DNA from: Octopus vulgaris
Taxonomy: Eukaryota
Reading direction: 5' to 3'
Assembly: GCA_951406725.2 (NCBI GenBank)
Contig: OX597817.1
Coordinates: 43,772,001 to 43,836,000, forward strand
DNA length: 64,000 nucleotides
Position 1 is the first letter of the stretch. Each line of letters begins with the position of its first letter. Made by a program: the position numbers. Below are positions 34,483 to 56,998 of the stretch, piece by piece.

Positions 34483-36327
34483 TTACACACACACACATAC
34501 ACACACACACATATATACGATGGGCTTCTTCCAGTTTCTGCCTACCAAATCCATTCACAAGGCTTTGGTCAGCCTGAGACTATTGCAGAAGACACTTGCC
34601 CAAGGTGGCATGCAGTGGAACCATGAACCATGAACCTGGAACCATGTGGTTGGGAAGCAAGCTTCTTACCACTTCTTTCTTTTATTCATTATGCCACTCA
34701 TAAACTTTCAAGATAATTGCAAAAGTATTATGATTTACTGGCTTTAACTGAGTAACCAAAATTTCAAGAACAAAAACAATGAACACTATGTTGCAATTTC
34801 TTTCAAAGTATACACATGCAAAAGTATTTGCATGTATTTCTTTGAAAATGAGATAAAATATTAATCCTATTACTCGCAATTTTTGTTTCTTTTAATTATA
34901 TCAGAGACGTATTTGACAAGCATGTAGTTTGGCTGTGAGGTTGTATTGAGATTAAAATTAGTGTAAGAGAGAAATCATATATTAGCCATTTAAAAACACA
35001 CAAAGACTGTTAACCTCACTTAAACATTTATTATCAGGTATCAAAATTTTCATTTTACTGTGACCTGCTCACTGACATGAGTTCTCTGCAATTCTGATGT
35101 GACAAAAAAGTTTAACATCAAATAATACATGTTTAAATGAAGTTAACAATCTTTGCATGCTTTTGAATGACTAATAAATGTTTTCCATGCTCCAATCATT
35201 ATGTGTATGTGTAATATATATATAAATATTTATTGTAACATATGTATGTGTTATATATATGAATTTGACATGTTTGCATGTCTATTATGTAGTTTTACAC
35301 ACACACATTAATATATATATGGGATACACACACATACATTACAAATTATCAGTTAAAATTTAAAATAAAAATAATATAGGACCCAATACTAGAGATATGA
35401 ATATTACACCTACCTGAGCATAGTACAAAACTTATAGTACAAAACTGCAAAACTAATTTTCCTATATATATATACATGTGATGCAAGCACACACACATGC
35501 TCAGGATGTTTATGCAACATCATGTTTCCTATAATTGCTTTGTGCTGACCAGTGTCTTGTGAATTAAATTGGTAGGTGGAAACTGTATGGAAGCTCATTG
35601 ATGCATGTACATACGTATGTATATATCTCTGTGTGTGTGTGTGCGTGTGTGTTTGAGTGTGCATAAAAGATGTCATTTTTGCTTTTGCATAAGATTTTGT
35701 TTACATTCTTATCCATCCCCCAATTAGACTTTGCAATATTTAAATTTATTAAAATTTTTCTCATTCATACTGTGTGTTGTACAAAATATATATTAATTAA
35801 TGAGGAGCCTATAAAAATTACAAATTAAGTTATCTACTATGATGCTATTCTAATTTATGACCATTTCATTTAGCATTCTATGTTACTGATGGGGGAATGA
35901 AACAAAGTATGGTTTTTTTGAGGAGCAGTCAACAAACTGGGAAACTGCTCATTAGGAGGCTCTCCATATTCTTTCATTGCACACCAAAAGTATAGATGTA
36001 ATGTATTTACATTCTTGTTTCACTAGGAGTAAACTTTGTAATATTTTAGTTCTTTTGATTCATACTGTGTTATACTTTAAGTTTCCACTCACACACGTGT
36101 GCTCATACAGCTTTTTGAGGTGAATTTTTGTCTTGCAACTCAAATTTTATGACGTTGTGATTGGCTCTTGCTTGAAGACCACAGTGGTAGGAAACTTGAG
36201 TTGTGAGATAAAACTTCAGTTTCAGTAAACCATAAACTCCACACCAACTATTGAGTACTCTTTCATTTATTTGACATAATTCAACCTTTGTATGTAAATG
36301 CAGACAGACAGACAGACAGACAGATAA

Positions 36328-36402
<75 letters not shown>

Positions 36403-54400: not shown

Positions 54401-56998
54401 ATAAAATGAAGACATTGGATACCCACATGGTTTACTGGAAGTAAAAATACGTTTTACTACTTAAATAATATAATCATTGATAAAGCTGGTTCTTTTGAAA
54501 ATGCTGGGACTAATGTTCAAATAAGGTTTTAAAAGTACAAAGAAATATTTATCTCAATTATTAACAAAAGTTTTCTCCCTCCTTACAACTAAAGCTGGCT
54601 CTTTGAAGACAAAGCAGAAATTGTATTCCAGGGAAACAAGTGCAGTTAATAATATCCAATTGAGGAAGAATTAACTTAGCATGGCCAATTAGCGATAAGT
54701 TTAGAGGAAGTAATTTGAAAAACATTCATTTGATGCCTTCAGGATGTGTGCAGGAGAGCCAAATGTTTTGATTTGAATATGTGAATACATAAAACATGAC
54801 TGAAAAGGTGCTACGAGTTGGTGTTCTTTCTACATACTAGTACTTTAACCCATTAACTATGGACATCATCAATGTTTCATTAGAGAACAGCAGACATCAT
54901 CAACTGATGTACATTTATATGATGCAGGAATCTTTCCTTTGCATCTGCTTACACCAGATGCAAAGGAAAGTATACATTTGTAGGCACTCTTTTATAATGA
55001 GATTGTAAATCTCATTGTTAGAAATATTAACAATTATTATAGTTTTTGAACCTATATAAAATGAAAACAAATACCAAAATTACTCTTAAGAAAAAGAGAT
55101 GTGTTTGGTACACACAGTCATGCAATCCTTTCCCACCATGTAAGGGTTAAAGTTTACTGAAAATTTTATAATATAACCTACCCTTAAAGATTTGAATTTA
55201 GTGTACAAATCTTCAATAAGAAACAAGTCATAATTGATCAGAAGTTTTCTACATTAGTCTCAAATTTCAATATTACTTCAGAATCTATGAGAGAAGCGGG
55301 TGGAGAATTGAACCTTATAAGTGCATATCAGAACCATTGTGGAGGCCACAATTAGAAAATTTGAGAGGGTATTCGAAGATTTGGGAAAAATTGTGTTTTT
55401 GACAAGAGAGCCCTTAAATATAAACAGACCCATCCAACCAAGTCAGCATGGGAGAAAATATGGATGATAATGATGATGGTGGTGACAACATCAACAACAA
55501 CAATGATCTAGAAATGTTTTTGGTCATTCTGGGTTGGGATTTATGACAATACATGTATAAATATTTATCTATTTATGAATTTACTAATACAAATATCAAT
55601 AACCCTCAAACATTTCACTCTTTATTGCAACTGATCTCTTTTCTCATTTCATGTCTCACAGATAGCTTTTCACCTTCCCCTATCTTTGTGATAATGCCTA
55701 AATTTAGTAACATCTGTCTTTATTTTGTCTATTTGTTTATTTTTTGATTCCACTAGTACAATGAAAATCCAAGCAATCACACACCTGTTTGCTCTTTCTT
55801 CTCTTTTTAGTAGTTTATTTGACTTGCTAATCAACATAATACATAAAGTTATTTTCATAAACTTAAAATAAAGATAACTTGCTCTTCAACTACAAAATTC
55901 TCTGCATCCAGGTTACTAAGTTTAAAGGAAATTATATGATTAAGTAAAATTGAAAGCCCTTTGAAGTAGAAATAAAATTGTCACAATTTTAAAAGGAATT
56001 GAGAATTTAAATAATAAGGAGCATATGTTAAAACTACAAAGAAAATTATTAATGTCTTAAAAGGTAATGTTATGTGGATATCAATATGTTTAATGAAGGA
56101 AGATTAAAATCTAATTAGAAATACATATGCAGAGAGGAATATAAAAAAAAAAGAAAAATCTTATCAATTAATATTATTTAAATTATTTTGGCAGTATGGG
56201 TGACAACTTCATATATGTTTCAGTGTTAATATGACTTTTGCAGTGAAGTATAGATTTCACTAAACTTACTGATGTATTGAGAGGAGAATCACTCAATAAA
56301 TTTGCAAAAATGTACTCTGGATTGCATAGAAAACTAGAATTTAAAACAAACTTTACACAGTGATGGGAACAGTTATTGATTTACAGTAAGCCTTTGGCTT
56401 TGGAAAACATCAAATTCTTTGCACCAAACTTGAATACTATATTCATATATAATCTACTATTGAAGTTTTCATAACACAGAAATCAATATATATGTATACA
56501 TTATACTGAATCTCCGTTAACAGAAACAGCATAGTTTCCCATAAGATTCTACCTGTTACTTACTAAGTATTACTATTCAAATCTATAAGTATCTTATTTG
56601 CTTGTAATATCTATCACAACTAGGCAAAAAGTCTGAGTAGTTTAAATATTTTAAAGTTTTACTAAGTTCTTGTACCTCATGAAATAATTTTAATTTATGC
56701 TTCTCTTAAGAACTATTTTTTTGTGGTAGTAAAAAAGACACCTTTATTTCCAACAATATTAAGATATACCCCATTGCTTCTGTTGGCAAACATTCAATTA
56801 TCTGAATTTATATAAATGTGTGTGTGTGTGTGTGTGTGTGCACGTGCGCACACACATGCGTGCTTATATGAAAGAACATAATATTTAAATGAACAAAGCC
56901 CACATTCAAGTGATTACATATTTTAAACAACTGAAGTAGTCTAATCTGAAATGCAATAATTTTTCTTTAATCTATACTTATTATTATTATTATCATCA

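What the first reader, a model, noticed from the sequence alone, without database searches (positions are those of the whole stretch)
36121..54970. Cluster of unique-sequence foldback hairpins with transition-dominated, strand-skewed arm mismatches
Seen: at least 8 mutually unrelated hairpins at 36121-36218, 47455-47619, 47739-47814, 51015-51078, 52621-52656, 53020-53058, 53810-53921 and 54932-54970. Seven of them fall within 7.5 kb of the SS4-position intron. Hand alignment of the six with substitutions gives about 38 transitions to 4 transversions. About 28 of the transitions are G-U-compatible on the plus strand and about 10 on the minus strand, so most are A-C mismatches in the neurexin pre-mRNA. 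Established: A-C mismatches in dsRNA are favoured ADAR sites, and coleoid neural transcripts are massively A-to-I edited. Inference, three options: (a) selected RNA structures (editing or splicing control, or antisense hairpin RNA precursors); (b) a hairpin-directed deamination process acting on foldback DNA; (c) arm homogenisation that removes transversions but tolerates G-T. Ascertainment by eye may inflate the bias.
Basis: partly seen in the sequence, partly recalled or inferred. Interest (0 to 1): 0.8.

Follow-up and report, generated by a model that had tools for sequence, protein, structure and literature searches.

The report
Foldback hairpin cluster, octopus neurexin intron
A 7.5-kb stretch of one intron of the octopus neurexin gene holds six unrelated, nearly perfect DNA hairpins; they look like local inverted duplications decaying by ordinary mutation, not products of a special editing-like process.

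Summary
The hairpins are real and so is the cluster. The claimed mismatch signature mostly is not. A scan that scores transitions and transversions alike finds 8 inverted repeats scoring >=48, against 0.175 per shuffled window. Six of the 7 strong foldbacks lie in 47455-54970 (scan-statistic p=0.0007). That stretch is in the neurexin intron (gene on the minus strand) just upstream of exon 44434-44321.

In the unbiased set of seven the counts are 19, 18 and 12, so there is no net strand skew. Ts:Tv of 3.1-4.1 does not differ significantly from eight local SINE copies (109:57; p=0.09-0.23). About 10 of 45 transitions are CpG decay.

Two residues remain: the four youngest hairpins show 14 transitions and 0 transversions, and polarity differs between hairpins (p=0.01-0.04).

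Best reading: in-situ inverted duplications from template switching or foldback repair. As a by-product they give dsRNA in the pre-mRNA. Genome copy number, orthologues and RNA data stayed unchecked.

The parts
47455..47619 (.). Foldback hairpin, 80 aligned pairs, 4-nt centre in a (TA)n core, 88.8% paired; G.T 4, A.C 5, Tv 0, 1 gap
   Evidence: (I17); RNA MFE -111.3 (+) and -113.0 (-), z about -20 and -22
47739..47814 (.). Foldback hairpin, 34 pairs, loop 8 (6 in the RNA fold), 94.1% paired; G.T 2
   Evidence: MFE -48.1 plus, -39.3 minus
51015..51078 (.). Foldback hairpin, 30 pairs, 4-nt loop, 90% paired; G.T 3, of which 2 are a TG/TG double mismatch of the kind a decayed CpG leaves
   Evidence: MFE -43.8 plus, -33.8 minus
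52612..52665 (.).
   Evidence: MFE -21.9 plus; -5.8 minus, where 32 of 200 shuffles fold as well
53006..53071 (.). Its right edge is where mariner-like coding similarity on the minus strand stops
53807..53924 (.). Foldback hairpin, 57 pairs, 4-nt loop, 77.2% paired; G.T 7, A.C 3, Tv 3. It abuts the 5' end of a minus-oriented SINE copy
   Evidence: (I24)
54932..54970 (.). Perfect 16-bp hairpin with 7-nt loop
36121..36218 (.). Weak hairpin in the next intron downstream; 27 pairs, loop 44; score 38-46, near chance; G.T 3, A.C 1, Tv 1
34971..35185 (.). 80-bp arms, 55-nt spacer, 78.8% paired; G.T 2, A.C 10, Tv 5. Folds far better on the minus (sense) strand
   Evidence: I13; MFE -58.8 plus, -83.8 minus
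44321..44434 (-). Neurexin exon (P0001 aa 1217-1254, ..EQMSIFNNQ..). The intron upstream of it (44435 to beyond 64000) holds the cluster
12425..12925 (-). Last neurexin exon (transmembrane segment and tail ending EWYV), 100% identical to O. sinensis neurexin-3 X2
53589..53805 (-). SINE copy, one of eight in the window; used as the local mutation-spectrum control
53071..53503 (-). Decayed mariner-like transposase remnant (Pfam Transposase_1, E=1.3e-9)

Best explanation
The hairpins are single-copy, in-situ inverted duplications. A stretch of 16-80 bp was copied in reverse complement right next to itself. This could happen by intrastrand or interstrand template switching during replication, or by foldback (snap-back) synthesis during break repair. 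Each event makes a perfect palindrome with a 4-8-nt loop in one step.

Each hairpin then decays by ordinary point mutation. Transitions dominate because they are the commonest change in this genome region (about 1.9:1) and because CpG sites in the arms decay fast. The hairpins span a range of ages, from 100% to 77% arm identity.

Because they sit in a neuronally expressed intron, they should form 16-80-bp dsRNA stems in the neurexin pre-mRNA and are plausible promiscuous ADAR substrates. That would be a by-product, not their cause.

Shown here: the structures, their excess over chance, the clustering, uniqueness within the window, lack of target-site duplications, and a mismatch spectrum not significantly different from the local background. 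Inferred: the generating mechanism, neutrality, and dsRNA formation or editing.
For: (1) Sharp-edged, almost indel-free palindromes. There is 1 gap in 375 aligned pairs over nine hairpins. Extents do not change when the gap penalty is halved.
(2) Loops are short. Of the six strong cluster hairpins, four have 4-nt loops, one has 7 and one has 8. The template-switch literature reports perfect hairpins made in one event, and enrichment of 4-nt loops among stems with instantaneous compensatory changes (PMC10710096 passages; PMC8794818 section 8).
(3) No second copy of any arm in 64 kb, and no arm belongs to the SINE or other repeat families found by all-against-all blastn.
(4) Flanking direct repeats are only 0-4 nt. 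Of 2,000 random position pairs, 1,402 reach 3 nt or more.
(5) Short-loop (<=12 nt) palindromes are in general excess across the whole window: 19 hits >=30 against 4.9 in shuffles, and 13 of the 19 lie outside the cluster. This fits a background mutational process.
(6) The mismatch spectrum is not separable from the local SINE divergence. Ts:Tv is 37:12 against 109:57 (p=0.23). G.T:A.C is 19:18, while the SINE changes that would make G.T or A.C number 60 and 49. CpG decay is visible at 6 places.
(7) Two hairpins sit exactly at discontinuities of transposon sequence. One is where mariner similarity ends (53071). The other is at the SINE 5' end (53805/53807). This is what break-repair or insertion junctions would give.
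Against: (1) The four youngest hairpins (47455, 47739, 51015, 54932) carry 14 transitions and 0 transversions. The binomial p is 0.0028 against the SINE transition fraction 0.657. The split into young and old is post hoc, and 3 of the 14 are CpG-type.
(2) G.T versus A.C differs between hairpins (permutation p=0.011; p=0.043 after collapsing obviously linked events). A uniform neutral process does not predict this.
(3) The 22-fold higher density of long hairpins in 47.4-55.0 kb is not explained by a random process. In human data, template-switch events were reported as depleted in introns (PMC10710096 passage).
(4) Arms of 57-80 bp are longer than the roughly 5-34-bp foldback insertions reported at yeast breaks (PMC11724301, listing abstract only).
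(5) No outgroup sequence was available, so no event could be polarised.
Confidence: 0.55

Rival explanations
1. The hairpins are selected RNA structures. They could be a nursery or cluster of hairpin-RNA precursors (young miRNA or endo-siRNA loci), or ADAR-recruiting dsRNA elements in the neurexin pre-mRNA. Under this reading, G.U wobbles and ADAR-rescued A.C (I.C) pairs are tolerated, while transversions are purged.
For: The four youngest hairpins carry 14 Ts and 0 Tv. Polarity differs by hairpin. Six of nine fold 5.7-16 kcal/mol better on the plus strand, one (34971) folds 25 kcal/mol better on the minus strand, and two are neutral. 47739-47814 has a 35-bp stem, the length preferred for pri-miRNA according to a PMC10710096 passage. 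The hairpins are clustered. In O. vulgaris most A-to-I editing lies in introns and 3'UTRs, and the authors link this to hairpins (PMC9699675 passage).
Against: No Rfam family reaches its gathering score (0 hits). The sub-threshold hits are generic hairpin or microsatellite matches. Three cluster members are only 36-54 nt long, too short for a miRNA precursor. Loops of 4-8 nt are below the >=10 nt preferred for Drosha. There is no coherent strand: net G.T:A.C is 19:18, and 47455 has 4:5. The older hairpins show a background-like 31:13. The statistics are small-sample and post hoc. No expression, editing or conservation data could be consulted.
Confidence: 0.15
2. The hairpins are foldback-type transposons or MITEs from several families. 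They would be multi-copy elsewhere in the genome and merely look unique in a 64-kb window.
For: The O. vulgaris genome is about 66% repeats and includes MITE and many Tc1-mariner families (PMC13282606 passages). The intron is full of SINE and mariner debris. Whole-element palindromes of 100-200 bp, such as 47455-47619 and 34971-35185, are MITE-like.
Against: No target-site duplication beyond chance at any of 10 boundary sets tested. No second copy of any arm in the window, although the SINE family has 8 copies there. Elements of 39-76 bp are smaller than typical MITEs.
Confidence: 0.17
3. The pattern comes from hairpin-directed deamination or transversion-specific arm homogenisation acting on foldback DNA. 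These are the reader's options (b) and (c).
For: Runs of same-direction mismatches occur. In 53807, six of seven G.T pairs have G on the left arm. In 34971, seven of ten A.C pairs have C on the left arm.
Against: Net G.T:A.C is 19:18. Three of the six in 53807 come from one GTGTGT/ATATAT run. If the T's in 53807 derived from C, their contexts would not be TC-type (1 of 6). Overall Ts:Tv is not significantly above the SINE background. The regional composition on the plus strand (A>T, C>=G) gives no sign of a plus-strand C-to-T or A-to-G drive.
Confidence: 0.04
4. The palindromes are long-read assembly or polishing artefacts.
For: Nothing in the data points this way. It is listed only because small perfect palindromes can arise from library chimeras.
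Against: The hairpins show graded decay from 100% to 77% arm identity, with CpG-type changes, which is the pattern of real evolutionary ages. Artefactual palindromes would be perfect and usually kb-scale (recalled, not from a call).
Confidence: 0.03

Closest known systems
Template-switch-mutation (TSM) hairpins, as described for primate genomes and de novo miRNA loci (PMC10710096, PMC8794818)
   Same: A reverse-complement copy lies next to its source and gives a perfect stem in one event. Sequences are unrelated and single-copy, loops are short, and the location is intronic.
   Different: No ancestral state is available here, so the four-switch-point test was not run. Arms of 57-80 bp are long. 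Six events lie within 7.5 kb, whereas the human events were reported as scattered and depleted in introns.
Foldback or snap-back templated inverted insertions at double-strand breaks (Pol theta stem-loop synthesis; yeast foldback duplications; PMC11292364 and PMC11724301, abstracts in the search listing only)
   Same: Short-spacer inverted duplications of unique local sequence. Two hairpins sit at transposon sequence discontinuities.
   Different: Reported sizes are mostly about 5-34 bp. No break or excision footprint can be shown here.
Intronic hairpin ADAR substrates in octopus, and mammalian editing inducer elements (PMC9699675 passage; PMC3479170 listing only)
   Same: Long, nearly perfect stems inside the pre-mRNA of a neuronal gene. 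Minus-strand folds range from -25 to -113 kcal/mol for the 7 strong ones.
   Different: No editing data were consulted. No edited exon is known to be paired or boosted. The DNA-level mismatch pattern does not need ADAR.
Inverted TE pairs (Alu-type inverted repeats) and MITEs
   Same: Inverted repeats in introns. The window has one such pair, 58490-59093, with Ts 11 : Tv 16.
   Different: The foldback arms belong to no repeat family seen in the window. They have 4-8-nt rather than hundreds-of-nt spacers, and no target-site duplications.

Membership tests
Template-switch / foldback inverted duplication | Adjacent reverse-complement copy of unique local sequence with a short spacer | tested here: met
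   six cluster hairpins with loops of 4-8 nt and 77-100% paired arms
Template-switch / foldback inverted duplication | Single copy, not a dispersed repeat family | tested here: inconclusive
   Unique within the 64-kb window. Genome-wide copy number was not testable because no cephalopod genome collection was open.
Template-switch / foldback inverted duplication | Derived state relative to an outgroup, explained by one four-point switch | not testable with these tools
   No orthologous DNA was available. Protein-level attempts to find orthologous ORFs found nothing.
MITE / foldback transposon | Target-site duplication flanking the terminal inverted repeats | tested here: not met
   best flanking direct repeats are 0-4 nt at 10 boundary sets; 1,402 of 2,000 random pairs reach 3 nt or more
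MITE / foldback transposon | Multiple copies in the genome | tested here: inconclusive
   No further copy in the window; the genome was not searchable
miRNA precursor | Match to a curated miRNA family | tested here: not met
   0 matches at gathering score.: only sub-threshold generic hits, best 59.1 bits against a cut-off of 90, on a microsatellite.
miRNA precursor | Stem of about 35 bp, apical loop >=10 nt, imperfect duplex | tested here: inconclusive
   47739 has a 35-bp stem but a 6-8-nt loop. 51015 has 30 bp and a 4-nt loop. 52612, 53020 and 54932 are too short. The criteria come from a PMC10710096 passage.
miRNA precursor | Small-RNA reads from both arms with 2-nt 3' overhangs | not testable with these tools
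   No read data. The supplements of PMC9699675 that list octopus miRNA loci are closed.
ADAR substrate / editing inducer element | Extended dsRNA stem in the transcribed (minus) strand | tested here: met
   minus-strand MFE from -25.0 to -113.0 kcal/mol for the 7 strong hairpins, with 0 of 200 shuffles as stable
ADAR substrate / editing inducer element | A-to-G RNA/DNA differences over the arms; effect on a nearby recoding site | not testable with these tools
   No RNA-seq. The 5'-neighbour check of the 25 pre-mRNA A's opposite C gave U 12, A 7, C 5, G 1. Only 2 of the 25 have a 3' G. Inconclusive.
Inverted pair of dispersed repeats | Arms belong to a repeat family | tested here: not met
   hairpin arms match only themselves

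The most novel reading that the evidence does not exclude
The young members of the cluster are kept as dsRNA by selection. Only changes that leave an RNA helix intact have been fixed: G.U wobbles, or A.C pairs that ADAR turns into I.C. This would explain 14 transitions and 0 transversions, and a polarity that differs from hairpin to hairpin. The SS4-position intron of octopus neurexin would then be a nursery of hairpin RNAs (nascent miRNA or endo-siRNA loci, or ADAR-recruiting elements) born by template switching. It would tie the coleoid expansion of miRNAs and editing to one mutational source.
Probability: 0.12. Interest if true: 0.7.

Novelty: new member of a known kind. Interest (0 to 1): 0.25.

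Why it matters
If the ordinary reading holds, this is a clean local example of how unique-sequence hairpins arise and decay in a repeat-rich cephalopod intron. Octopus introns are already reported to be rich in such ADAR substrates, and this shows where some of them may come from.

It is also a caution. A G.T-tolerant eye reading one strand will create an apparent strand skew. A symmetric scan with a local TE-based mutation spectrum removes it.

Only the two residual signals (transition-only young hairpins, and polarity that differs between hairpins) would make this important. Both can be tested directly with existing octopus genomes and RNA data.

Tried and rejected
(1) Rfam at gathering score over the whole window gave 0 matches. 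In permissive mode over 34-56 kb it gave 51 sub-threshold hits, the best on the (ATAC)n array at 51.4 kb, with generic miRNA models on 47455 and 47739 on both strands. I reject these as composition or hairpin-shape matches.

(2) I searched for other copies of the hairpins in the window and found none.

(3) The target-site-duplication test found nothing beyond chance.

(4) I tried to polarise the 53006 hairpin through its host mariner. Word-index protein searches found nothing. An HMMER scan gave 108 distant transposases. Mapping 11 of those 108 back showed only that similarity ends at the hairpin edge (53071). A weak possible C-terminal match lies at 52324-52244 (E=0.18). This is suggestive and does not polarise the event.

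(5) The ADAR-neighbour check of the 25 plus-strand G.T sites gave 5' U 12/25 against 29% background, and 3' G 2/25 against 17%. Inconclusive.

(6) Pfam on nine ORFs near the hairpins gave mariner Transposase_1 in three and nothing in six. My impression that 49964-50140 is an RTE-like endonuclease remnant is recall only and was not confirmed.

(7) I could not find the SINE target-site duplication at 53589/53805 that would date the SINE relative to the 53807 hairpin. No clean duplication is visible.

(8) The literature searches found no paper describing this hairpin cluster or an octopus neurexin-intron miRNA. Octopus + neurexin + microRNA returned 1 unrelated paper. PMC13155455 (perfect inverted repeats across genomes) has no occurrence of octopus or mollusc terms.
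Full report
WHERE WE ARE. The window has no N. The ORF at 12422-12967 (minus strand) ends in a transmembrane segment and a tail ending ...KEWYV. 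The last exon alone (12425-12919, minus) was used as the protein query. It is 100% identical to 'neurexin-3 isoform X2 [Octopus sinensis]' (P0001, E=2.7e-100).

I mapped P0001 back exon by exon with tblastn. This places aa 1217-1254 at 44434-44321, aa 1252-1283 at 40952-40857, aa 1283 onward at 22515-about 22381, aa 1305-1363 at 22127-21951, and aa 1363-1529 at 12925-12425, all on the minus strand. Nothing upstream of aa 1217 maps in the window, and tblastn of all 52 retrieved neurexins found no further exon.

Hairpin 36121 lies in the next intron downstream (40856-22516). The exon begins at ..EQMSIFNNQ... That this is the point where vertebrate neurexins carry splice site 4 is my recollection, not a tool result.

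ARE THE HAIRPINS REAL? All eight fold as described. To avoid the bias of reading one strand with G.T allowed, I wrote an einverted-type dynamic programme with match +3, every mismatch -4 and gap -12. TRF-detected microsatellites (5,697 bases) were masked.

With span <=260 nt, the window gives 8 hits >=48 and 6 hits >=55. Forty dinucleotide-preserving shuffles in 2-kb blocks gave means of 0.175 (max 3) and 0. The strong foldbacks are:
- 34971-35185 (score 121)
- 47455-47619 (98 masked, 165 unmasked)
- 47739-47814 (88)
- 53807-53924 (80)
- 51015-51078 (69)
- 53006-53071 (58)
- 54932-54970 (48)

The eighth hit, 33767-33995 (score 49), has a 187-nt spacer and is not a foldback.

These are 36121 (38 masked, 46 unmasked) and 52621 (32, as 52612-52665). 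Shuffled windows average 10.9 hits >=36 and 2.35 hits >=40.

Six of the seven strong foldbacks lie within 7,516 bp. The chance that 7 uniform points do this in 64 kb is 0.0007. Restricting to loops <=12 nt, hits >=40 number 5, all in the cluster, against 0.3 in shuffles. Hits >=30 number 19 against 4.9, and 13 of the 19 lie outside the cluster. So small palindromes are in mild general excess, and the long ones are concentrated in 47.4-55.0 kb.

ARE THEY UNIQUE SEQUENCE? Blastn of nine hairpins against the window returns only self-matches, self-inverted matches, and (TA)n hits to the core of 47455. All-against-all blastn finds a SINE family (8 copies), a roughly 700-bp tandem duplication and other dispersed pairs, but no hairpin arm among them. 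Best flanking direct repeats are 0-4 nt at 10 boundary sets, while 1,402 of 2,000 random pairs reach 3 nt or more. Halving the gap penalty changes no boundary. There is 1 gap in 375 aligned pairs.

THE MISMATCH SPECTRUM. Counts per hairpin, as G.T / A.C / transversion on the plus strand:
- 34971: 2/10/5
- 36121: 3/1/1
- 47455: 4/5/0
- 47739: 2/0/0
- 51015: 3/0/0
- 52612: 3/1/0
- 53006: 1/0/4
- 53807: 7/3/3
- 54932: 0/0/0

For a local background I aligned the eight SINE copies and counted each against a majority consensus. This gave Ts 109: Tv 57 (1.9:1). On the plus strand, changes that would make G.T (A>G plus C>T) number 60, and changes that would make A.C number 49.

The skew of 23:10 gives p=0.035 against 0.5, but p=0.11 against 0.55. 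Adding the omitted hairpin gives 25:20 (p=0.55). The unbiased seven give 19:18.

The two G.T-rich marginal hairpins are exactly those a plus-strand reader would accept, while their A.C-rich mirror images would go unseen. Hairpin 52612 folds at -21.9 kcal/mol on the plus strand but -5.8 on the minus strand, where 32 of 200 shuffles fold as well. The net strand skew is therefore largely ascertainment.

Part of the transition excess is CpG decay. Four TG/TG or CA/CA double mismatches occur at 36134-5, 51029-30, 34999-35000 and 47502-3. These are what a palindromic CpG gives when both arms decay the same way. With two single sites where the partner arm still has CG (47527, 53850), about 10 of the 45 transitions are accounted for.

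Three of the seven G.T pairs in 53807 belong to one GTGTGT-versus-ATATAT run and are not independent. The plus strand of the region has A>T and C>=G. So there is no compositional sign of a plus-strand A>G or C>T drive.

WHAT REMAINS UNEXPLAINED. First, the four hairpins with >=88.8% arm identity carry 14 transitions and no transversion (binomial p=0.0028 against 0.657). The five older ones show 31:13 (p=0.31). The split is post hoc.

Second, G.T:A.C is heterogeneous among the strong hairpins (permutation p=0.011; p=0.043 after collapsing linked events). This is driven by 34971 (2:10) against 53807, 51015 and 47739.

In energy terms, six of nine fold 5.7-16 kcal/mol better as plus-strand RNA. 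Two are neutral (47455: -111.3 and -113.0; 54932: -23.5 and -25.0). Hairpin 34971 folds 25 kcal/mol better on the minus strand. These residues fit RNA-level tolerance of wobble pairs, but they are small-sample.

CONTEXT. A minus-oriented SINE copy ends (5' end) at about 53805, and the 53807 hairpin starts two bases on. A decayed mariner-like transposase (Pfam Transposase_1, E=1.3e-9) was mapped with 11 of the 108 distant transposases found by HMMER. Its similarity runs on the minus strand from about 53503 to 53071 (..SNKSTHKAF). It stops exactly at the right edge of hairpin 53006-53071.

Two of six cluster hairpins thus sit at sequence discontinuities, as repair or insertion junctions would. 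Two protein searches aimed at orthologous or sister copies found nothing, so no event could be polarised.

KNOWN FAMILIES. Rfam gives nothing at gathering score. Permissive hits are generic.

Template switching is documented to create perfect hairpins in one event, including de novo miRNA loci, most of them intronic. In human polymorphism data the events themselves are depleted in introns (PMC10710096, passages read). Four-nt loops are enriched among stems with instantaneous compensatory changes (PMC8794818; abstract, passages and section 8 read).

Foldback templated inverted duplications at breaks, and Pol theta stem-loop synthesis, are described in PMC11724301 and PMC11292364. I saw only the listing abstracts.

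[quoted passage not shown] Its supplementary miRNA tables are closed and might list loci here. The O. vulgaris genome is about 66% repeats with MITE and Tc1-mariner families (PMC13282606, passages).

VERDICT. The anatomy is real and significant. It is a cluster of six unrelated, short-loop, near-perfect foldbacks of different ages in the neurexin intron at the SS4 position, plus one large hairpin (34971) and two marginal ones (36121, 52612) elsewhere.

The proposed signature mostly dissolves. There is no net strand skew under unbiased ascertainment. The transition excess does not differ significantly from the local SINE background and is partly CpG decay.

The best-supported mechanism is in-situ inverted duplication by template switching or foldback repair, followed by near-neutral decay. 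The stems probably act as incidental ADAR substrates in the pre-mRNA. Selected hairpin RNAs and multi-copy MITEs remain open, because genome-wide copy number, orthologous loci, small-RNA, editing and population data could not be consulted here.

Noticed in passing
window 34971-35185 (repeat finder gives arms 34956-35050 / 35106-35200): Top-scoring inverted repeat of the masked scan (80-95-bp arms, 55-nt spacer). Its mismatches have the opposite polarity (G.T 2, A.C 10), so it folds 25 kcal/mol better as sense (minus-strand) RNA.
   Followed up: yes
window 17049-17173, 25137-25248(-), 29396-29610, 30101-30310, 37450-37634, 53589-53805(-), 59187-59385, 61101-61303: Eight copies of one SINE family, with roughly 65-88% pairwise identity over the blastn segments. 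They served as the local mutation-spectrum control: Ts 109 : Tv 57, with no significant strand asymmetry (60 vs 49).
   Followed up: yes
window 18341-19064 (+) and 53071-53503 (-): Two decayed mariner-like transposase remnants (Pfam Transposase_1) with frameshifts and stops. They show no nucleotide similarity to each other in blastn at E<=1e-5.
   Followed up: partly
window 58490-59093: Long-spacer inverted repeat (106 aligned pairs, 388-nt spacer, 4 gaps) with Ts 11 : Tv 16. It looks like an old TE-type inverted pair. ORFs inside it gave no Pfam match.
   Followed up: partly
window 28897-29598 and 29609-30305: Tandem duplication of a roughly 700-bp unit (73% identity; Ts 76 : Tv 48). Each unit ends in a SINE copy and trinucleotide runs.
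   Followed up: no
window 8553-9070, 30314-30404, 36302-36402, 48094-48252, 51416-51521, 1711-1899: Large microsatellites: (TA/TG)n of about 520 bp, (TAA)n, (AGAT)n, (TCTG)n and (ATAC)n, plus a 105-bp unit repeated 1.8 times. The (ATAC)n array causes the best sub-threshold Rfam 'mir-297' hits.
   Followed up: partly
whole window: Short-loop (<=12 nt) palindromes scoring >=30 are about four times as frequent as in shuffled sequence (19 vs 4.9), also outside the cluster. Examples are 1925-1968, 34801-34847, 47149-47185 and 50951-50976.
   Followed up: partly
window 22381-22515 (-): This tblastn segment is only 58% identical to P0001 aa 1283-1327, and it overlaps in protein coordinates with the next exon (aa 1305-1363 at 22127-21951). 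It is probably a short exon plus read-through into the intron. The exon boundary was not resolved.
   Followed up: no
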